A stretch of DNA of 7,549 bases from a virus (taxonomy: Duplodnaviria > Heunggongvirae > Uroviricota > Caudoviricetes): the IMG/VR virus record IMGVR_UViG_2675903665_000006; one strand, given 5' to 3'. The notes under the pieces were generated by a model. The model made no database searches. It worked only from the letters and a program-made list of their open reading frames with translations, and was not told the DNA's origin. A program made the position numbers and the translations under genes. Positions 288 to 7,549 of this stretch are shown here, piece after piece (position 1 is the stretch's first letter; the number at the start of each line of letters is the position of its first letter).

Positions 288-1202
288 ATGCACTCGATAA
301 AAAAAGTAACCATGCTCTTGGGGGGCCTCGCACTCACCTGCTCGATCGCATTTCAGGCAAGTGCAACTGAAAAATTCAAGGTCATTACAACATTTACCAT
401 CATCGCGGATATGGCCAAAAACGTGGCGGGAGATGCTGCAGAAGTCTCATCTATAACCAAGCCTGGTGCAGAAATTCATGAGTATCAGCCTACCCCTGGC
501 GATATTAAACGTGCGCAGGGGGCACAACTGATTCTCGCCAATGGTATGAATCTGGAATTGTGGTTCCAACGCTTTTACCAGCATCTCAATGGGGTTCCAG
601 AAGTAATTGTCTCTTCGGGTGTGACGCCTGTAGGGATCACCGAAGGACCCTATGAGGGCAAACCTAACCCCCATGCATGGATGTCGCCAGATAATGCTCT
701 GATTTACGTCGATAATATTCGTGATGCGTTGATAAAATACGATCCGGCAAATGCACAAACCTACCAACGCAATGCCGATACTTATAAAGCCAAGATTACC
801 CAAACCCTTGCCCCCCTGCGTAAGCAGATTACGGAACTCCCTGAGAATCAGCGGTGGATGGTCACCAGTGAAGGGGCTTTTTCTTATCTCGCACGCGATT
901 TGGGGCTAAAAGAGCTTTATCTGTGGCCGATTAATGCCGATCAACAAGGAACACCGCAGCAGGTACGTAAGGTTGTTGATATAGTTAAGAAAAATCATAT
1001 CCCGGCAGTCTTTAGCGAGAGTACGATTTCCGATAAACCAGCGCGTCAGGTTGCGCGTGAAACCGGCGCACACTACGGCGGTGTGCTCTATGTCGATTCC
1101 CTGAGCACAGAAAACGGCCCGGTACCGACATATATCGACCTTCTTAAGGTTACTACCAGTACGCTGGTACAGGGAATTAAAGCCGGGAAAAGGGAGAAAT
1201 AA
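288..1202 (+). CDS. sitA: Periplasmic Mn2+/Fe2+-binding protein of an ABC transporter (cluster A-I, TroA/PsaA/YfeA-like), 304 aa
   Basis: ORF with an N-terminal signal peptide (basic n-region KK, hydrophobic core [19 protein letters not shown] cleavage-like motif). Candidate metal ligands in [19 protein letters not shown] and YVDSLS. Weak SD (AGGT, 8-nt spacer). An alternative ATG at 312 lacks the basic n-region. Confidence 0.9.
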
Positions 1203-2029
1203 TGATGCAATCTGCAGGCATTGTCGTTAATGATGTTGCTGTCACCTGGCGTAACGGGCACACAGCACTGCGCGATGCATCCTTCACAGTACCAAGTGGA
1301 TCTATTGCCGCTCTGGTTGGGGTAAACGGTTCCGGAAAATCGACGTTGTTTAAAGCGATTATGGGATTTGTGCGTCTGACCAGCGGAAAGATATCTGTTC
1401 TGGGTATTCCCACGCGACAGGCGTTACAGAAAAACCTGGTTGCCTACGTCCCTCAGTCAGAAGAGGTTGACTGGTCATTTCCTGTACTGGTGGAAGATGT
1501 GGTGATGATGGGCCGCTATGGGCATATGGGTATGTTGCGTATCGCCAAAAAGAGGGATCGTCAAATTGTCACCGATGCGCTAGAACGTGTCGATATGGTG
1601 AATTTTCGCCATCGACAAATCGGCGAGCTTTCCGGTGGACAAAAGAAACGCGTCTTTCTGGCGAGAGCGATTGCACAGCAGGGTGATGTGATCCTGCTGG
1701 ATGAACCTTTTACTGGCGTTGATGTGAAAACCGAAGCCAAAATCATCAGCCTGTTGAGGGAGTTACGCGCGGAAGGCAAAACGATGCTTGTCTCAACGCA
1801 CAATCTCGGATCCGTCACGACATTTTGCGATTATACGGTCATGGTCAAAGGCACCGTCCTGGCAAGCGGGCCGACAGACACCACTTTTACAGCCGAGAAC
1901 CTGGAGCTGGCTTTTAGCGGCGTACTGCGCCATGTCACACTTAACGGCTCGGAAGAAAGCATTATTACTGACGATGAACGCCCTTTTGTGGCTCATCGAC
2001 CGTCAGCGGTGCAGAGGGAAGAAAGATGA
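1202..2029 (+). CDS. sitB: ABC transporter ATP-binding subunit for Mn2+/Fe2+ import, 275 aa
   Basis: Walker [13 protein letters not shown] signature LSGGQKKR, Walker B ILLDEP, H-loop STHNL. SD GGGAG upstream; the ATG overlaps the sitA stop (TAATG). Confidence 0.9.
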
Positions 2030-2883
2030 ACGTGCTACTGGAACCCTTCAGCTATGAATATATGCTCAATGCGATGTGGGTCTCGGCGATGGTCGGCGGT
2101 CTCTGCGCTTTCCTGTCATGCTATCTGATGCTAAAAGGCTGGTCGCTGATTGGCGATGCGTTGTCGCACTCTATTGTCCCGGGTGTTGCGGGGGCATATA
2201 TGCTGGGGCTTCCGTTTTCTCTGGGAGCCTTCTTTTCCGGCGGACTGGCTGCGGGCAGCATGCTGTTTCTTAACCAACGCACCCGCTTAAAAGAAGATGC
2301 CATCATCGGCCTGATCTTCTCGTCCTTTTTTGGCCTGGGGCTGTTTATGGTGTCATTGAACCCGACATCTGTGAACATTCAGACCATCGTCCTGGGCAAT
2401 ATTCTGGCAATCGATCCGGCGGATATCCTGCAACTCACTATCATTGGCATTCTCTCGATCATCGTGCTTTTTTTCAAATGGAAAGATCTTATGGTGACCT
2501 TTTTCGACGAGAATCACGCCCGTGCTATTGGATTGCATCCGGGCAGATTAAAACTCCTCTTCTTCACCCTGCTGTCGGTTTCGACCGTTGCGGCGCTGCA
2601 AACGGTTGGTGCCTTTCTGGTGATCTGTCTGGTGGTGACTCCCGGAGCAACAGCATGGTTGTTAACCGATCGTTTTCCCCGCCTGCTCATGATTGCTGTA
2701 ACTATTGGCAGTGTAACCAGTTTCCTCGGCGCGTGGGTCAGTTACTTTCTGGACGGCGCGACAGGTGGAATCATCGTGGTGGCGCAGACACTGCTGTTTC
2801 TTTTAGCATTTGTCTTTGCGCCCACCCATGGGCTTTTGGCAAATCGTCGGCGTGCGCATAAGGCGCTGGAGGATCGCTCATGA
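2026..2883 (+). CDS. sitC: ABC-3 family metal permease subunit, 285 aa
   Basis: Highly hydrophobic polytopic protein; its start overlaps the sitB stop (ATGA), indicating translational coupling; same length and architecture as the adjacent paralogue. Confidence 0.88.
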
Positions 2884-3737
2884 TGGCATTATTACTGGAG
2901 CCACTGCAGTTCACCTTTATAAGTCACGCACTGCTGATTTCACTGGTAGTTTCCATACCCTGTGCGCTGCTGTCGGTCTTTCTGGTCCTGAAAGGTTGGG
3001 CACTGATGGGTGACGCGATGAGTCATGCGGTTTTTCCTGGCATCGTGCTTGCCTGGATTCTGGGGTTACCTTTGGCTACAGGGGCATTCGTCGCCGGAGT
3101 ATTCTGCGCGGTGGCGACGGGATACCTGAAAGACAACAGCCGAATCAAGCAAGATACAGTGATGGGGATTGTTTTTTCTGGCATGTTTGCCGCAGGTCTG
3201 ATCTTGTATATTGCAGTCAAACCAGACGTACATCTTGACCATATTCTTTTCGGCGACATGCTCGGGATAACCATCGGCGATATAATCCAGACGGTGATTA
3301 TTGCTGGGCTGGTTACACTTGTTATTAGCGTAAAATGGCGAGATTTTTTGCTGTTCAGCTTTGATTATCAACAGGCGCAGGTAAGCGGTTTGCATACGAG
3401 ATGGCTGCATTATGGGCTGCTGTGCATGGTCTCTATGACCATTGTGGCGACGCTGAAAGCGGTAGGTATCATTCTCTCCATTTCTCTGCTCATTGCGCCT
3501 GGCGCCATTGCGGTACTCCTGACACAACGCTTTCATATTGCGCTCCTACTGGCGACTGGCATATCGGTAATAGTGTCAATGACTGGTGTCTGGTTGTCCT
3601 TTTTTATCGACAGCGCACCAGCTCCGACGATTGTCGTCTTATTCGCGGTTTTGTTCATCATGACGTTTGCCGTTACCAGCATCAACGCACGCAAAAAGGG
3701 AAACTCCCATACACAGGATCTGTTATCACCCAATTAG
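2880..3737 (+). CDS. sitD: ABC-3 family metal permease subunit, 285 aa
   Basis: Paralogue of the preceding permease (shared motifs such as LKGW.L.GDA.SH..PG); its start overlaps the sitC stop (ATGA); stop TAG at 3735-3737. Confidence 0.88.
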   Translation: MMALLLEPLQFTFISHALLISLVVSIPCALLSVFLVLKGWALMGDAMSHAVFPGIVLAWILGLPLATGAFVAGVFCAVATGYLKDNSRIKQDTVMGIVFSGMFAAGLILYIAVKPDVHLDHILFGDMLGITIGDIIQTVIIAGLVTLVISVKWRDFLLFSFDYQQAQVSGLHTRWLHYGLLCMVSMTIVATLKAVGIILSISLLIAPGAIAVLLTQRFHIALLLATGISVIVSMTGVWLSFFIDSAPAPTIVVLFAVLFIMTFAVTSINARKKGNSHTQDLLSPN

Positions 3738-3828: not shown

Positions 3829-4128
3829 TCACCCACGATTAACCAACAGCCAGACCAGCAGACACGCCACCACCGGCACAGCAAAATCCATCAGGCTTGC
3901 CACATCCCAAACACGCGGATCAAAACCGCCCCACCACGGCATGTTAATCCGCTTGCCATGCCCGAACATTTCAATCCAGCGATATTCTGCCTGGGTGTGT
4001 TCACGCGCAATGAAGAACGTACAACCGGCTATCGCTCCGTAAGCCCAGTTCCCGGTAAAAAGACCAATCAGTAGCTGCGCAGCCACAGCACAAAGAGCAT
4101 GAAGGAAAGGTGTTATATCCATTTTCAT
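3829..4128 (-). CDS. Small inner-membrane protein of unknown function, ~97-102 aa, two predicted TM helices
   Basis: Clean ORF with two hydrophobic helices (FLHALCAVAAQLLIGLFTGNWAYGAIAGCTFFI and FAVPVVACLLVWLLV) flanking a charged, Trp-rich loop (REHTQAEYRWIEMFGHGKRINMPWWGGFDPRVWD). The track start at 4137 is TTG; in-frame ATGs lie at 4128 and 4122, the latter with AGGA 5 nt upstream. The overlapping +-strand ORFs look like low-complexity noise. Confidence 0.55.
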   Translation of the reverse strand: MKMDITPFLHALCAVAAQLLIGLFTGNWAYGAIAGCTFFIAREHTQAEYRWIEMFGHGKRINMPWWGGFDPRVWDVASLMDFAVPVVACLLVWLLVNRG

Positions 4129-4140
4129 CCTACCCAATAA

Positions 4141-4167
4141 AACGGGGCGCTCGGCCCCTTAATATTA
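4141..4167 (-). terminator. Rho-independent terminator-like hairpin just downstream of the 346-aa fibre-like gene, possibly bidirectional
   Basis: GGGGC (4144-4148) and GCCCC (4154-4158) form a GC-rich stem with a 5-nt loop; on the - strand it is followed by GTTTTATT, on the + strand preceded by an A-run and followed by TTAATATTATTT. The stop of the 346-aa gene is at 4165-4167. Confidence 0.45.
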
Positions 4168-4190
4168 TTTAGACGCAAGCGCCGCCTCAA
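4162..4190 (-). promoter_or_regulatory. Putative sigma70 promoter for the small membrane-protein gene, embedded in the 3' end of the fibre-like gene
   Basis: On the - strand: TTGAGG (plus 4190-4185), 17-bp spacer, TAATAT (plus 4167-4162). Hexamers found by eye; unverified. Confidence 0.2.
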
Positions 4191-5205
4191 TTGCAGATAA
4201 TCTTTGTCTTAATTCTGCGTTTTCTTCTTCCAGTGCTGTTATTCTGTCGTCTGACTCTCTGACTACCTGAACAAGCAAGCCAGTAACACCAGAATAATCT
4301 ACAGTGTAATACCGTTCACCTTCTTCTCCATCTAATCCACTCCCGCCGTCTGGATATTTCATCATAGACCCTACGGCTTCGGGGATGGCTTCCAGGGTTT
4401 CTTGTGCAATAACACCAGCGTAAGGCATACCGTTTTCTTTAAGCGTGTATGTATAGCCGTTCATTTTACGAATGCGGTCGGTTGCATTATCGATCACCTG
4501 AATATTGTCTTTCAGATCCCGGTCAGAGCCTTGATTAAATGCACTTGCATTGCACGCGCCGTTAACCGTTAATTCGTAGGTATTGCTGGTAGTTTTCTGC
4601 GCATAGAACATATAAGCGCCACCATCAACACCGACTTCATAAACAACAGGACGGCTGGAGTTGCCCCACAATTGAGCAGTAACACCAGCATAAGCGGTTC
4701 CCTGTGTGTTTAATGTCATGGTTGACCCATGATTGGCATATTTGATCTGTAATGTGTCGGTGTAATCAAATTTAATAAGCGCGTTACTTCCACGCTTACT
4801 GTATGACATAAGGCAGTTACCCATTTTGAGGTATCCGCTGTCACCGGGAAAAATCATCGTACCGCCATAAAGGTTGGTAAAGTCCCAGCAAATGTTTGTC
4901 CCGTTATCGTTCAGGTTAAGGCGCGCCATTGCGTTACCTGGACTGTCTATCCATTTTTTGAGGTATAGTTCGCAATACGCATCCTCAACACCTGCCGTCC
5001 TGTGAGTTGAGCGGAGTTTTCTCCCAAATATAGCTCCGCTAGTTGGCAATACCTGCTGATACCATGAAGCAGACCAGTCACCAACGGTTTCATCTTTGCT
5101 GTCTACATATGATTTTGTTGCGTAGCTTCCTTGATCGTTTTTTAATTTGCTAACGTCGGATTTTAGCGTTTTGATGTCTTCAGGAATTACTGTCGATGTA
5201 GCCAT
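4165..5205 (-). CDS. Tail-fibre/tail-spike-like receptor-binding protein with a C-terminal Peptidase S74 intramolecular chaperone domain, 346 aa
   Basis: C-terminus SDRDLKDNIQVIDNATDRIRKMNGYTYTLKENGMPYAGVIAQETLEAIPEAV...ITALEEENAELRQRL fits the S74 auto-cleaving chaperone pattern (Ser/Lys dyad, GxIAQE, PExV, terminal coiled coil). LWGNSSRPVVYEVG resembles a P2 H-type fibre motif. SD GAGGA is 7 nt upstream of the ATG. Confidence 0.85.
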   Translation of the reverse strand: MATSTVIPEDIKTLKSDVSKLKNDQGSYATKSYVDSKDETVGDWSASWYQQVLPTSGAIFGRKLRSTHRTAGVEDAYCELYLKKWIDSPGNAMARLNLNDNGTNICWDFTNLYGGTMIFPGDSGYLKMGNCLMSYSKRGSNALIKFDYTDTLQIKYANHGSTMTLNTQGTAYAGVTAQLWGNSSRPVVYEVGVDGGAYMFYAQKTTSNTYELTVNGACNASAFNQGSDRDLKDNIQVIDNATDRIRKMNGYTYTLKENGMPYAGVIAQETLEAIPEAVGSMMKYPDGGSGLDGEEGERYYTVDYSGVTGLLVQVVRESDDRITALEEENAELRQRLSAIEAALASK

Positions 5206-5214
5206 TTTTCTTCC

Positions 5215-5496
5215 TCACATCCAGCCACGAAGTTGATGCTCAACAGCAACCACGTATTCATCGAATATTGACGATTTTTTTGCATCATTAATGATGCGCA
5301 CGTTTACAAAATATCCGTCTTCCTTAACACATACCGGCTCGCCATCTTCGGTAAGTTCTCCGGTTTCTTTGTACACGTTACCTATCACGTCAATAAGAAT
5401 ATCATCCTGCATCGACTCATCATCATAATAGCCGATACTCTCCATAAAGGCCGAAAAGTCGGCCCTGTCGACAAATTTGAGTGTTAAATCTTTCAT
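5215..5496 (-). CDS. Hypothetical acidic protein, 93 aa, translationally coupled to the upstream tail-fibre gene
   Basis: Its ATG overlaps the fibre gene stop (TAATG); its own stop overlaps the SD of the next gene; rich in Asp/Glu. No family recognised. Confidence 0.55.
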   Translation of the reverse strand: MKDLTLKFVDRADFSAFMESIGYYDDESMQDDILIDVIGNVYKETGELTEDGEPVCVKEDGYFVNVRIINDAKKSSIFDEYVVAVEHQLRGWM

Positions 5497-7102
5497 TAGA
5501 TTAACTCCCCCACCTGAGCATCAGTCAATGCCTTGTGCCATATTCTGAAATTCCTGACATGACCAAATAAATGACGTAACCCGGCTGTAGTCTGGCCTCC
5601 AATACGGATAATTGCGGTGTTCTGAATATAGGACCATGTGGCTTTTGTTTCGCTGGATATACGCCCGTTACTTACTGAGCACGTAGACTGATCTGACTTT
5701 ACACGCATCCCCATAACCATTTTTTCAAGCAATGCGTTTTCGTTTACCCGTCTGTTAGCTCCTCCAATATCGCAATAAGGAAATCCGTCATAATCTGTTG
5801 AACGACCGAAGCCAAGAATAATAGCCGCTCCGGTTTGATGACCACCGGTATCAAAAACACGTGGCGCTGCATTTGGCGTTTTATACCAGTTCTTATGTAC
5901 CTCACAAAGAACCGTAAAAGGAAGATTATAAAGGTTATTCTTGATTGGGACTGTCACCATATCGCTTGCGCGAGTGCTTGCAGTTATATCAGTTACAATA
6001 AATGACGAAGCACTTGATCCACCTTCCACTTGTGGAGTTGCGATATCCAGATAGTCTCCAGATGCTGTGCCTGAACCTTTTACTGGAGCATATTGAACCA
6101 TCGCACCAATCATGCTCTCTGTATCTAGTGCATTAATTGTAGCCTGATAGAAAATCCAACCAGTAGCCTCATCTTTTACAGCCTTTGCAATAATACGATT
6201 TGCTGCACCACCAGTCTTATCAATTACAAGTGTTGATAAATTGAGGTAAGCATCTCCCAAAAAAGTGTAAGTAGAACCATCATGATGTTCAAATCTTAAA
6301 CGACACCTTATATTTTCAACATCACTTCTGACACGGCATGAAATGGTCACATATTTTTCATCACCTGTGACATCAAATCCTTTACTGCCAGAAACCGTTA
6401 CGATATTAATCGCACTTGTCTGATCAATAAGAGTATCTTTTACAGTAAATCTCCCATAAGTAAAATTAAAAGAATCCGTGGATATTTCTGTGAGTTCCAG
6501 ATTGCCTGACTTATTCCATTTAGATGGATTTGTTGAATTAAGCAGAAGATTAGTTCTTTGCCCCTCAATAAGCAGGCCATCACGTTCAAATCGCGGCTCG
6601 TCAATGGCAGCCTCTGTCAGTACACCAGATTTATTAATATAGGTTGCTTTCGATGCGCGTTTAAACTTAACAACCTTGTCACCAGGCATCGTTATTTCAT
6701 CATCACCAATAACAATCTTTTTATATGATGGCGAAAAGCCCGTAATCATATCCAGTGAATCGTTAAACGGTATCCACACATCTGGAAGCGGCTGCAAAAC
6801 TTGTTTATACGGCTCCGCAGCCTGGCTTGCATACTCTCTGGCTGCGTCTTCACTTGCTTTTGCAGCCGTCTGGCTTGCAGCGGATGCTTTCGCCGAGTTA
6901 GCCGCCGCAGTCTCGCTCGCCTTTGCGTTGGTTTCACTGGTTTTTGCAGCTTTTTGACTGTTGGCTGATGCAGTGGCAGAAGAAGCCGCCGCACTTGCAG
7001 AACCAGCTGCGGCACTCTCGCTTTGGGCTGCAGCATCCTGACTGTTTTTCGCCGCAGTTTCACTGGCTTTGGCATTCGACCAAAACGGGAAGCTAATCGC
7101 AT
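5496..7102 (-). CDS. Stf-like side tail-fibre protein, N-terminally truncated: Ala/Ser-rich repeat region plus a C-terminal LamG/ConA-like lectin-type domain; start unresolved, possibly a pseudogene
   Basis: The body frame is open from 7115 to the stop at 5496-5498 and encodes ...AKASETAAKNSQDAAAQSESAAAGSASAAASSATASANSQKAAKTSETNAKASETAAANSAKASAASQTAAKASEDAAREYA..., typical of lambdoid Stf fibres, ending FGHVRNFRIWHKALTDAQVGELI (LamG-like tail). The only SD+ATG (AGGAG, ATG at 7102-7100) is one base out of frame; the first canonical in-frame start is TTG at 6797. Confidence 0.7.
6800..7080 (-). repeat. Degenerate short tandem repeats encoding the Ala/Ser/Thr-rich (AAKxSETxA-type) fibre shaft
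   Basis: Reiterated imperfect units such as cgccgcagtctcgctcgcctttgc and cgccgcagtttcactggctttggc on the + strand; translation on the - strand gives repeating A-K-A/T-S-E-T-A-A motifs. Confidence 0.5.
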
Positions 7103-7161
7103 AACAGTAACTCCTTTATGAAGGCATAAAATTAATAAAATTTTTTTCGCTTAATATCATC

Positions 7162-7203
7162 CCCCTCGGTTATCGTTAACAAAAAGACAACAATTCCGAG
7201 GGG
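7162..7203. other. Inverted repeat (8-bp arms, 26-nt loop) in the intergenic region upstream of the tail-fibre gene
   Basis: CCCCTCGG (7162-7169) and CCGAGGGG (7196-7203) are exact reverse complements; the loop contains GTTAAC; an AT-rich tract (7110-7150) follows on the - strand before the fibre SD. Confidence 0.4.
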
Positions 7204-7211
7204 AAGGACCA

Positions 7212-7508
7212 TCAAATCAGGTCAGTTCGGGACTGACCAACCTGCCGAGTGAAAAGCAGTAACAGCGCGATCAACTCATCAGCGTTTTTTCTGACAAGAG
7301 GAGTATGATTCTCCAGGCTATCCAGTAAGTCATGCAGCTCATTATTGACCTGGTGGAGCACCTTAAAGAGTGCACCAGAATCCCGGCAGCTCTGATATGC
7401 AAGATTTGCCTGAACAGCACGATTCTGCATGATCCCGATTTGTGCGATTGCGTCTTTCTGCTGATCGCCTGTTGGCTGATAAGTGGTGTTAAAAGAAAAT
7501 GCGCTCAT
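7212..7508 (-). CDS. Hypothetical protein, 98 aa, phage-associated by context
   Basis: ORF with strong SD (AGGAGG, ~5 nt spacer) before the ATG at 7508-7506; stop TGA at 7214-7212; predicted largely helical; no family recognised. Confidence 0.55.
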   Translation of the reverse strand: MSAFSFNTTYQPTGDQQKDAIAQIGIMQNRAVQANLAYQSCRDSGALFKVLHQVNNELHDLLDSLENHTPLVRKNADELIALLLLFTRQVGQSRTDLI

Positions 7509-7549
7509 AATTCCTCCTGTATCTGATGTTTTCAGCCCCCATCATCTGT

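What the first reader, a model, noticed from the sequence alone, without database searches (positions are those of the whole stretch)
5215..5496. Unassigned 93-aa acidic ORF wedged between two fibre genes with overlapping stop/start on both sides
The TAATG overlap upstream and the SD-overlapping stop downstream indicate co-translation with the fibre proteins, the position usually taken by a fibre assembly chaperone (Tfa or gp38 type). It is about half the size of typical Tfa proteins and I see no Tfa-like motif. It could be a novel small fibre chaperone or adaptor, or an unrelated cargo gene.
Basis: inference. Interest (0 to 1): 0.45.

Follow-up and report, generated by a model that had tools for sequence, protein, structure and literature searches.

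The report
Small partner protein of LamG-ended phage fibres
This 93-residue acidic protein is a real, conserved phage gene of untested function that always sits directly behind one particular type of tail-fibre receptor-binding module, from E. coli phages to marine cyanophages, so it is most likely that module's dedicated assembly helper, although this copy lies in a dead prophage fragment on a plasmid.

Summary
A 93-aa acidic ORF (5215-5496, minus strand) has a TAATG overlap upstream and an SD-overlapping stop downstream.

It belongs to PHROG 1361 (unknown function). It has no Pfam, NCBIfam or PADLOC match and no convincing fold relative among solved structures.

The main result is comparative. 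In every locus examined, about 30 diverse ones and 79 of 80 close relatives, the gene lies directly downstream of a protein whose C-terminal ~430 aa match one module. That module is a GTA-head-spike-fibre-like domain ending in a LamG-type β-sandwich. The lineages include lambdoids, Drexlerviridae, Dhillonvirus, Queuovirinae, T5-like and rV5-like phages, a phage-plasmid, cyanomyoviruses and uncultured viral contigs.

The second fibre downstream is optional. It is missing in phage 21, Perceval, rV5-like phages and cyanophages.

The protein therefore goes with the upstream fibre. It is most likely a Tfa-like assembly chaperone or cap with a new fold. An adaptor role for the second fibre is less likely, and a cargo role is rejected. 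No experiment or paper addresses it.

In this window the upstream fibre gene is 5'-truncated and joined to F-plasmid DNA, so this copy is a relic.

The parts
5215..5496 (-). The finding: 93-aa acidic protein (pI 4.19), a member of PHROG 1361. The predicted fold is a small alpha/beta sandwich. Conserved motifs are MKDLTLKF (N-terminus), D-x-I-G (aa 36-39), G-Y-F-V-N-x-R (aa 61-67) and P/x-L-R-x-W-A at the extreme C-terminus.
5494..5498 (-). TAATG stop/start overlap between the upstream fibre gene and the small gene (translational coupling). Other phages have ATGA or TAATG overlaps, or gaps of 1-2 nt, at this junction.
5505..5510 (-). GGGGAG Shine-Dalgarno-like motif, 8 nt upstream of the small gene's ATG and inside the end of the fibre gene.
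   Evidence: read directly from the sequence
5496..7076 (-). 5'-truncated remnant of a lambda-Stf-type side tail fibre gene. It keeps the Ala/Ser-rich coiled-coil stretch and the C-terminal ~433-aa module that is the invariable upstream neighbour of the small gene. The intact version is 792 aa in E. coli CH4811.
6672..6797 (-). Highly conserved ~42-aa 'neck' at the start of the module (PLPDVWIPFNDSLDMITGFSPSYKKIVIGDDEITMPGDKVVKF). It is intact in all aligned phages whose second fibre carries the M.T.T.IP.DIT.LK N-terminus, and also in phage 21. It is altered in AZ21, partly deleted in rV5-like phages, and not matched by the module profile in cyanophage partners, whose matches start at about profile position 43. 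It is a candidate docking site for fibre 2 (inference).
5967..6572 (-). GTA_spike_fiber domain (NCBIfam NF048003). It is related to the RcGTA head spike fibre Rcc01080 (PDB 6tb9), which binds capsular polysaccharide.
5511..5657 (-). C-terminal end with a weak Laminin_G_3 (concanavalin-like) match. A similar C-terminal motif (...FRIWHKALTDxQ...) closes the upstream protein in the enterobacterial loci aligned and, in looser form, in the environmental ones.
4165..5205 (-). Second, short fibre (346 aa). It has a conserved N-terminal peptide MATSTVIPEDIKTLK (5161-5205), a variable middle and a Peptidase_S74 intramolecular chaperone domain (4372-4527). It is an optional third member of the operon.
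5212..5216 (-). GAGGA Shine-Dalgarno-like motif of the second fibre gene. It overlaps the TGA stop (5215-5217) of the small gene.
4144..4158 (-). GC-rich hairpin followed by a T-run, directly after the stop of the second fibre gene. It is the likely end of the fibre operon, but it is a consensus match only.

Best explanation
The ORF encodes a dedicated accessory protein for one kind of receptor-binding module. That module is the ~430-aa C-terminal part of the fibre encoded just upstream: a GTA-head-spike-fibre-like domain ending in a LamG or galectin-type β-sandwich.

Proposed mechanism:
1. The protein is made by termination-reinitiation at the fibre gene's stop codon, so it appears next to the nascent fibre C-terminus in roughly matched amounts (inferred).
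2. It binds that C-terminal module (inferred).
3. Like lambda, Mu and P2 Tfa proteins, it helps the module fold or oligomerise. It is then either released or stays as a small cap (inferred).
4. It has its own small alpha/beta fold, unrelated to Tfa, gp38 or gp57A (shown).

Shown: the gene is real and under purifying selection. Its coupling to the module is strict in every locus examined. It does not depend on the second fibre.

Inferred: physical binding, and the chaperone activity itself.

In this window the gene is intact, but it lies in a plasmid-borne prophage remnant whose fibre gene has lost its 5' part. It is probably idle here.
For: **Gene pair conserved across distant lineages**
- In KarlJaspers (Drexlerviridae), VogelGryff (Seuratvirus), phage 21, VSe12 (T5-like) and nimi (rV5-like), the protein upstream of the homologue aligns with the window's 433 aa over its full length at 46-74% identity.
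- The same pairing holds in JenP1, JenP2, L6jm, KarlBarth, AZ21, IrisVonRoten, SelmaRatti, AKFV33, 2G7b, Perceval and fp01.
- PhiR41_1 also has the small gene directly behind a side-tail-fibre gene. That gene is fragmented and was not scored against the module.
- In 79 of 80 close IMG/VR relatives an ORF, usually ~740-870 aa long, ends at the small gene's start.

**The pair reaches beyond enterobacteria**
- Synechococcus phage S-WAM2 gp197 matches the family profile end to end (hhalign probability 97.4%, E 1e-11). It follows gp196, which matches the module profile (E 2e-24).
- The same arrangement is seen in S-TIM54 and in eight environmental viral contigs where upstream DNA is available. The module match is weak in one of them, L111 (E 2.8e-4).
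- Foldseek against viral models finds only uncharacterised proteins of uncultured and cyanobacterial phages (TM up to 0.71).

**The second fibre is optional**
- It is absent in phage 21 and Perceval, where a membrane protein and sitDCBA follow.
- It is absent in PhiR41_1 and in rV5-like phages, where a terminator follows.
- It is absent in cyanophages.

**Coupling signals**
- TAATG or ATGA overlaps, or gaps of 1-2 nt, occur at the upstream junction everywhere.

**Covariation**
- Pairwise divergence of the small protein tracks the module (Spearman 0.65). The correlation is highest with the last, LamG-end segment (0.65), against 0.40 with the N-terminus of fibre 2.

**A fibre without the LamG end has no reported partner**
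- RcGTA's head fibre Rcc01080 aligns only with module residues 45-292 and so lacks the LamG-end part. It is reported to be followed by capsule genes, with no partner mentioned.

**Real coding gene**
- pN/pS is 0.32. The AF2 model is confident (pLDDT 85.8, pTM 0.73). The strongly conserved C-terminal tail is the least confident part, as expected for a segment that orders on binding.
Against: - There is no direct evidence of binding, chaperone activity or virion absence for any member.
- Small-protein identity and module identity are not tightly matched. VogelGryff has the module at 71% but the small protein at 40%, so recombination separates them, or the interface is small.
- In S-WAM2-type loci two tandem module paralogues share one small gene.
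- The mirror-tree correlations are confounded by linkage and shared ancestry.
- I could not run a complex prediction.
Confidence: 0.55

Rival explanations
1. Structural adaptor for a branched fibre. The small protein stays in the virion on the end of fibre 1 and provides the socket into which the conserved N-terminal peptide (M.T.T.IP.DIT.LK) of the second, S74-type fibre docks.
For: - It lies exactly between the two fibre genes and is coupled to both.
- In 15 of 18 diverse enterobacterial loci a second fibre with that N-terminal motif starts 3-12 nt after it.
- The full docking peptide is found only in phages that also carry the module and the small gene (61 records with at least 80% coverage).
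- Small-protein divergence correlates modestly with the fibre-2 N-terminus (rho 0.40), whereas module against fibre-2 N-terminus gives 0.05.
- The BASEL paper places IrisVonRoten Gp24 on the proximal fibre Gp22 and never accounts for Gp23.
Against: - The small gene is kept, with all its conserved motifs, where no second fibre follows: phage 21, Perceval, PhiR41_1, rV5-like phages, cyanophages and GC-rich environmental contigs.
- The docking peptide stays nearly unchanged in SelmaRatti and AKFV33, although their small proteins are only ~23% identical to the window's.
- AZ21 and fp01 have a different fibre-2 N-terminus but a typical small protein.
- A better candidate socket exists. The ~42-aa neck of fibre 1 is intact in all aligned phages whose fibre 2 has the docking peptide, and it is changed, partly deleted or unmatched in those whose fibre 2 lacks it or is absent. 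Phage 21 is the exception: it keeps the neck but has no fibre 2.
Confidence: 0.2
2. Retained distal subunit with a receptor-binding role, similar to gp38 of T2 or S16. The small protein caps the LamG-type head and forms part of the glycan-binding surface.
For: - Strict pairing with a receptor-binding module.
- The central loop (aa ~40-56) is the variable, indel-prone part of the protein.
- Its mean divergence (48% identity) is as high as that of the module (49%).
- AKFV33 ORF137 ran at 95.8 kDa on SDS-PAGE. By my calculation a 784-aa protein is about 85 kDa. This is at most a weak hint.
Against: - There are no hypervariable segments of the kind seen in gp38 adhesins.
- The N- and C-terminal motifs are conserved from coliphages to cyanophages, whose receptors have nothing in common.
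- The protein is small, acidic and without a recognisable carbohydrate-binding fold.
- No proteomic detection has been reported. The only data set found analysed four gel bands.
Confidence: 0.15
3. Unrelated cargo (moron) or a spurious ORF that merely sits at the end of the tail operon. The neighbouring sitABCD, cdtABC and membrane-protein genes are of that kind.
For: - The region downstream is a known moron site: sitABCD here and in phage 21, cdtABC in E. coli CH4811.
- Every database annotates the protein as 'hypothetical'.
Against: - It is present in strictly lytic phages of five or more lineages, inside the fibre operon, always in the same position relative to the same module.
- pN/pS is 0.32.
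- There is no PADLOC match.
- It has no promoter of its own and overlaps the fibre gene's stop.
Confidence: 0.03

Closest known systems
Tail fibre assembly proteins of the Tfa type (lambda Tfa, Mu gpU/U', P2 gpG; Pfam Caudo_TAP PF02413 and the DUF4376 C-domain)
   Same: It is encoded immediately downstream of the fibre gene and coupled to it, and it pairs with the fibre's C-terminal receptor-binding part. It travels with that part when fibres recombine between unrelated phages.
   Different: It is half the size (93 against ~175-195 aa). It has no sequence match and no fold match in PDB searches. Its client is a GTA-spike-fibre/LamG-ended module, not a Tfa-dependent fibre tip. Activity is untested.
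Alteromonas phage V22 gp27, an intermolecular chaperone of the RBP gp26 (PMC7289586)
   Same: It is a precedent for a previously unrecognised chaperone family encoded directly downstream of a marine or enterobacterial-type RBP. gp27 is required for function but absent from the mature complex.
   Different: gp27 is 21.8 kDa and carries DUF4376. It is not homologous to the present family.
T4 gp38 / gp57A and the T2/S16 gp38 adhesin
   Same: They are small accessory proteins of long tail fibres, and some are retained at the tip.
   Different: No sequence or structural similarity was found. The glycine-rich and hypervariable architecture of gp38 adhesins is absent.
Branched fibres: DT57C LtfA/LtfB (PMC4728585, PMC10713586) and the 'branching domain plus docking peptide' system of Klebsiella podophages (PMC13352976)
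   Same: In many loci the operon encodes a proximal fibre and a second fibre with a short conserved N-terminal peptide and an S74 intramolecular chaperone. That is the logic of a primary RBP carrying a secondary RBP.
   Different: Those systems are described without any small third protein. DT57C LtfA ends in an S74 domain, not a LamG-type module. Here the small protein also occurs where there is no second fibre.
RcGTA head spike fibre Rcc01080 (PDB 6tb9; NCBIfam GTA_spike_fiber)
   Same: It is homologous to the central part of the upstream module (E 9e-5 by sequence, domain E 3e-16) and binds capsular polysaccharide.
   Different: It relates to the partner module, not to the small protein. 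Rcc01080 lacks the LamG-type end and has no reported small partner. Its base protein Rcc01079 is a jelly-roll, unlike the alpha/beta model obtained here.
IrisVonRoten (Bas32) lateral fibre as modelled in the BASEL completion paper (PMC11990801)
   Same: It has the same three-gene operon: bas32_0022 (proximal fibre with a C-terminal 'galectin-like domain'), bas32_0023 (a 92-aa homologue) and bas32_0024 (the T-shaped fibre).
   Different: The paper discusses Gp22 and Gp24 only. The small protein is annotated 'tail fiber protein' in GenBank, and no role is proposed for it in the passages I retrieved.

Membership tests
PHROG 1361 (unknown function) | Full-length match to the family profile | tested here: met
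   E 1.7e-46, 157 bits, residues 1-93 on profile positions 1-92 of 92
Tfa-type tail fibre assembly proteins (Caudo_TAP PF02413 / DUF4376) | Sequence match to the Pfam or NCBIfam models | tested here: not met
   No Pfam family at E <= 1. NCBIfam gave only a chance FlhF hit at E 0.058.
Tfa-type tail fibre assembly proteins | Fold resemblance to solved Tfa or other fibre-chaperone structures | tested here: not met
Tfa-type tail fibre assembly proteins | Gene immediately downstream of, and co-inherited with, the receptor-binding C-terminus of a fibre | tested here: met
   Every locus examined, across 7 or more phage lineages
Tfa-type tail fibre assembly proteins | Required for folding or trimerisation of the fibre; binds its C-terminal tip | not testable with these tools
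   This needs co-expression and pull-down, or a multimer structure prediction.
T4-type gp38 / gp57A accessory proteins | Sequence or profile similarity | tested here: not met
   No Pfam or PHROG hit to these families
Peptidase_S74 intramolecular chaperone | S74 auto-processing domain in the protein | tested here: not met
   The domain is absent from the 93-aa protein. It is present in the downstream 346-aa fibre (aa 227-278, E 6.5e-14).
Virion structural adaptor of a branched fibre | Presence depends on a second fibre to be docked | tested here: not met
   The gene is retained without a second fibre in phage 21, Perceval, PhiR41_1, nimi, Alma, S-WAM2 and S-TIM54.
Virion structural adaptor of a branched fibre | Detected in purified virions | not tested
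   The only proteome found for a carrier phage (AKFV33) analysed four gel bands on a 10% gel, so a 10-kDa protein would not have been seen.
Anti-phage defence or moron cargo | Match to known defence families, or a variable position independent of structural genes | tested here: not met
   PADLOC gave no hit. The position is fixed within the fibre operon.

The most novel reading that the evidence does not exclude
The most novel reading not excluded is this. The 93-aa protein stays on the virion as a small hub at the end of LamG-ended fibres. It forms, alone or together with the conserved neck of fibre 1, the universal socket for the conserved N-terminal peptide of interchangeable second fibres. 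This would be a three-part plug-and-play branching system shared by lambdoid, T1-like, T5-like and Queuovirinae phages. In lineages without a second fibre it would simply cap the head domain.
Probability: 0.17. Interest if true: 0.65.

Novelty: new variant of a known kind. Interest (0 to 1): 0.45.

Why it matters
- Lateral and side tail fibres with this module are common in E. coli and Salmonella phages. They occur in T5-like, T1-like, Dhillonvirus, Queuovirinae, rV5-like and lambdoid phages and prophages. Such fibres are being modelled and swapped to reprogram host range.
- If the small gene is an obligatory partner of the module, chimeric fibres and structure predictions that leave it out may misfold or be incomplete. 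The published IrisVonRoten fibre model discusses Gp22 and Gp24 only.
- A role for the gene would add a new, structurally distinct family to the short list of fibre accessory proteins. It would also assign a role to a PHROG currently marked 'unknown function' that extends to marine cyanophages.
- For this particular window the practical meaning is small, because the gene lies in a plasmid-borne relic next to sitABCD.

Tried and rejected
**Searches on the small protein that gave nothing usable**
- Pfam, NCBIfam and PADLOC scans.
- PDB sequence profile search: only a chance OB-fold hit (Tetrahymena p19, E 0.04).
- The AFDB50 library was not available.
- Rfam scan of the whole window: nothing.

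**Homology ideas tested and rejected**
- rV5 gp29, an 88-aa ORF between two fibre genes. It is not related (hhalign probability 0.1%), and rV5's own gp41 allele lacks the module.
- V22 gp27. It belongs to a different family, DUF4376.

**Literature**
- Searches on phage 21 Stf and sit, DT57C LtfA/LtfB, BASEL, the Eligo chimeric STF work and the AKFV33 proteome found no statement about this protein.

**Technical failures**
- The search for related loci with the family alignment failed because no conserved 7-10 column stretch exists.
- The search for related loci and the protein search with the divergent member P0159 found nothing new.

**Considered and set aside**
- Programmed frameshift fusion of the small ORF to the fibre. 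The junction varies (TAATG, ATGA, 1-2 nt gaps) and has no conserved slippery site.
- A complex prediction. The tool takes single chains only. The second structure job was not spent, because no fold-search jobs remained to interpret it.
Full report
**1. What is in the window**

The window has three parts.
- sitABCD lies on the plus strand at 288-3737.
- A block of phage genes lies on the minus strand. It holds a 102-aa membrane protein (3829-4137, PHROG 1443) and a 346-aa fibre with a Peptidase_S74 intramolecular-chaperone domain (4165-5205, PHROG 4563). It also holds the 93-aa ORF of the finding (5215-5496) and an ORF (5496-6797) that matches only the C-terminal half of PHROG 1419 'tail protein' (profile positions 359-793 of 793).
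- From about 7076 the DNA is no longer phage.

In frame, the last phage ORF continues upstream through an Ala/Ser-rich coiled-coil stretch to about 7076, but it has no start codon there. Homology to intact prophage fibre genes stops at 7078. Positions 7076-7549 are 100% identical to the leading region of F-type plasmids (hypothetical gene, DUF932 and ssb, near traM).

The window is therefore a plasmid-borne sit island that carries the tail-fibre end of a phage-21-like prophage, and its main fibre gene has lost its 5' part. Phage 21 and phage Perceval have the same order: J, Stf, small gene, membrane protein, sitDCBA. E. coli CH4811 has an intact version (J, lom, 792-aa Stf, 93-aa gene, 346-aa fibre, membrane protein) with cdtABC in place of sit.

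**2. The observation**

- The ORF starts at ATG 5496-5494 and stops at TGA 5217-5215.
- The upstream TAA (5498-5496) shares an A with the ATG, giving TAATG. GGGGAG lies 8 nt upstream of the start.
- The TGA overlaps a GAGGA motif that serves the next ATG at 5205.
- The protein is acidic: pI 4.19, 21 D/E against 9 K/R.

It is a real gene.
- It matches PHROG 1361 end to end (E 1.7e-46).
- It has 218 related clusters in the large protein collection, all called 'hypothetical' or 'prophage protein'.
- A no-index HMMER scan of 1.84 billion representatives finds only 51 clusters, so the family recognisable by sequence is narrow.
- Among 34 distinct close alleles pN/pS is 0.32.

**3. What the protein looks like**

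- No Pfam, NCBIfam or PADLOC family matches.
- An AlphaFold2 model built on 19 sequences is confident (pLDDT 85.8, pTM 0.73). The order of elements is β-α-α-β-β-β-β-α, a small alpha/beta sandwich. Confidence is lower over the last ~25 residues.
- Foldseek against PDB gives nothing below E 0.01.
- Against predicted viral structures, the only significant matches are uncharacterised proteins of uncultured Caudovirales. Weaker matches are cyanophage proteins (TM up to 0.71).
- Invariant or nearly invariant positions are M1, D3, L6, F8, D36, I38, G39, G61, V64, N65, R67, R90 and W92. They form the motifs MKDLTLKF, D-x-I-G, G-Y-F-V-N-x-R and a terminal P-x-R-x-W-A at which most members end.

**4. 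Genomic company: the decisive evidence**

tblastn finds the gene in 181 phage records. In five very different phages the protein upstream of the homologue aligns with the window's 433 aa over its whole length at 46-74% identity. These are KarlJaspers (Drexlerviridae), VogelGryff (Seuratvirus), phage 21, VSe12 (T5-like) and nimi (rV5-like).

| Further loci with the same pairing | Lineage |
|---|---|
| JenP1, JenP2 | Nonagvirus |
| KarlBarth | Dhillonvirus |
| L6jm, IrisVonRoten, SelmaRatti, AKFV33, AZ21, fp01 | T5-like |
| 2G7b, Perceval | lambdoid |
| Alma | rV5-like |

- The most divergent members still match. SelmaRatti's 88-aa protein is 23% identical (hhalign E 5e-20). fp01's small protein and module match the profiles at E 2.5e-20 and 3e-55.
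- The phage-plasmid PhiR41_1 also has the small gene directly behind a side-tail-fibre gene. That gene is fragmented and was not scored against the module.
- In 79 of 80 close IMG/VR relatives an ORF, usually about 740-870 aa long, ends at the small gene's start.

The module consists of four parts.
- A very conserved ~85-aa start (mean 69% identity).
- A GTA_spike_fiber domain (NCBIfam NF048003, E 3e-16). It is related to the RcGTA head fibre Rcc01080 (PDB 6tb9, E 9e-5), which binds capsular polysaccharide.
- A variable stretch.
- A C-terminal end with a weak Laminin_G_3 match (E 0.0057). This region corresponds in position to the 'galectin-like domain' that the BASEL authors see protruding from IrisVonRoten Gp22.

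**5. The pair is older than enterobacterial phages**

- The module also hits Synechococcus phage S-WAM2. The 116-aa gene 2 nt downstream of that hit (gp197) matches the family profile from end to end (hhalign probability 97.4%, E 1e-11), including IDVVG, DGWHVNVR and a terminal P-S-R-V-F-A.
- Using gp197 as bait, cyanophage S-TIM54 and ten IMG/VR contigs were recovered.
- In all eight contigs where upstream DNA exists, and in S-TIM54, the gene directly upstream matches a profile of the module. Two cases needed HMMER's filters switched off, and one of those (L111) is weak (E 2.8e-4).
- These upstream proteins end in a similar LamG-type C-terminal motif (…YYPRRLSDEQLQALT and the like).
- What follows the small gene there is unrelated: ThyX, a terminase-like ORF, or small hypotheticals.

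**6. The second fibre is optional**

- In 15 of 18 diverse enterobacterial loci a second fibre gene starts 3-12 nt after the small gene. Its N-terminus is M-(A/V/T)-T-x-T-x-I-P-x-D-I-x-x-L-K, followed by variable receptor-binding parts. An S74 domain is present where I checked.
- Among close relatives two alleles (346 and ~234 aa) share only that N-terminus.
- BASEL GenBank records call two of these proteins 'putative lateral tail fiber chaperone', presumably because of the S74 domain.
- The second fibre is missing in phage 21, Perceval and PhiR41_1 (membrane protein next), in rV5-like phages (terminator next) and in the cyanophage loci.
- AZ21 and fp01 have a second fibre with a different N-terminus (MA-x-RID-x-INL…) but a typical small protein.
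- The docking peptide is almost unchanged in SelmaRatti and AKFV33, whose small proteins are the most divergent.
- The first ~42 residues of the module are intact in all aligned phages whose fibre 2 has the standard peptide, and also in phage 21. They are altered in AZ21 and partly deleted in rV5-like phages. In cyanophage partners the profile match starts only at about position 43.

I therefore think the fibre-1 neck is a better candidate socket for fibre 2 than the small protein. This is an inference.

**7. Covariation**

Across 18 diverse loci:

| Comparison | Spearman rho |
|---|---|
| Small protein vs whole module | 0.65 |
| Small protein vs last (LamG-end) segment | 0.65 (the highest segment) |
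| Small protein vs fibre-2 N-terminus | 0.40 |
| Module vs fibre-2 N-terminus | 0.05 |

These numbers are confounded by linkage and ancestry and count only as weak support. Identities are not always matched: VogelGryff has the module at 71% and the small protein at 40%. Recombination therefore does occur between the two genes.

**8. Interpretation**

Shown:
- A conserved, selected gene.
- Translational coupling to the upstream gene.
- Strict pairing with one receptor-binding module across very distant phages.
- Independence from the second fibre.
- No relation in sequence or fold to known fibre chaperones.

Inferred:
- The protein binds the C-terminal (LamG-end) part of the module.
- It acts in the module's folding or assembly, as Tfa proteins do for their fibres. 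It is then either released or retained as a cap.

RcGTA's head fibre lacks the LamG-type end. The paper read describes capsule genes downstream of it and mentions no small partner. This fits the LamG end being the client, but it is a single case.

The adaptor model keeps some weight (0.2). The docking peptide never occurs without the module-plus-small pair, and the published IrisVonRoten fibre model leaves Gp23 unexplained. A gp38-like retained subunit is possible (0.15). Cargo is rejected.

**9. Literature**

I found no paper that discusses this protein.
- The BASEL papers describe the fibres on either side.
- The DT57C papers describe a branched LtfA/LtfB fibre without a third small protein.
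- The AKFV33 paper names ORF137 and ORF135 as the fibre proteins, skips ORF136, and analysed only four gel bands.
- V22 gp27 is a precedent for a new chaperone family downstream of an RBP, but it is unrelated.

**10. Verdict**

The accessory protein belongs to the upstream, LamG-ended fibre.
- It is an uncharacterised family (PHROG 1361) that probably represents a structurally new variant of the known 'fibre gene plus downstream helper' arrangement.
- Its reach into cyanophages was not evident from annotation.
- The mechanism is unproven, and the copy in this window is a relic.
- Interest is moderate at 0.45.

Noticed in passing
window 7076-7549 (junction at about 7076-7078): The phage fibre gene is cut at its 5' side and joined to DNA 100% identical to the leading region of F-type plasmids (hypothetical 98-aa gene 7212-7508, DUF932 and ssb neighbourhood, near traM). 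The window is therefore plasmid-borne, and the tail-fibre block is a remnant. No complete E. coli genome in the collection has the whole window contiguous.
   Followed up: partly
window 288-3737, compared with L003 (phage 21), L102 (Perceval) and L006 (E. coli CH4811): sitABCD occupies the moron site downstream of the fibre operon, exactly as in phages 21 and Perceval. In E. coli CH4811 the same site holds cdtABC (cytolethal distending toxin type IV). The plasmid sit island thus looks like a captured end of a phage-21-type prophage.
   Followed up: partly
window 3829-4137 (-): A 102-aa predicted membrane protein (PHROG 1443, unknown function) follows the fibre genes in lambdoid prophages and in the phage-plasmid PhiR41_1, with or without the second fibre. 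It is absent from the lytic phages examined. It may be a lysogenic-conversion or exclusion gene.
   Followed up: no
window 5161-5205 (-); L001, L002, L004, L087-L093, L097, L098, L101: Second fibres in Drexlerviridae, Dhillonvirus, Queuovirinae, T5-like and lambdoid phages share a ~15-26-aa N-terminal peptide (M.T.T.IP.DIT.LK) and then diverge completely. Close relatives carry 346-aa and ~234-aa alleles. This behaves like the 'docking peptide' of secondary RBPs in Klebsiella podophages.
   Followed up: partly
window 6672-6797 (-): The ~42-aa neck at the start of the fibre-1 module is intact wherever fibre 2 carries the standard N-terminal peptide. It is altered, partly deleted or unmatched where fibre 2 has another N-terminus or is absent (AZ21, rV5-like phages, cyanophages). 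Phage 21, which has no fibre 2, keeps it. It is a candidate branching site on the proximal fibre.
   Followed up: partly
L001 5270-5947; L002 5267-6433: The BASEL GenBank records annotate the S74-domain proteins downstream of the small gene as 'putative lateral tail fiber chaperone'. By N-terminal motif and architecture they look like second fibres with an intramolecular chaperone domain, so the label is probably misleading. In IrisVonRoten and SelmaRatti the small protein itself is labelled 'tail fiber protein'.
   Followed up: partly
phage records MG065692 (Campylobacter phage C13), MG065654, MG065676, OR847733 and OR848352 (Listeria phage LM 4-11-1 / 4-14-1): Records named as Campylobacter or Listeria phages carry T5-like or rV5-like coliphage fibre operons that are 70-100% identical at protein level to E. 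coli and Salmonella phage genes. They look like mislabelled or contaminant sequences.
   Followed up: no
L099 1497-4179; L104; L105 (cyanophage S-WAM2 and relatives): Two tandem paralogues of the GTA-spike-fibre/LamG module precede a single small-protein gene. In L106 and L107 one 854-aa protein contains three tandem copies of the GTA-spike-like part.
   Followed up: no
L101 (AKFV33 orf137), paper PMC3326045: The upstream-type fibre ORF137 (784 aa, about 85 kDa by my calculation) was reported at 95.8 kDa on SDS-PAGE. The roughly 10-kDa excess is unexplained. It may be anomalous migration and should not be over-read.
   Followed up: no
window 4144-4158: A GC-rich hairpin with a T-run on both strands lies between the second fibre gene and the membrane-protein gene. 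It is a possible bidirectional terminator separating the fibre operon from the moron genes.
   Followed up: no
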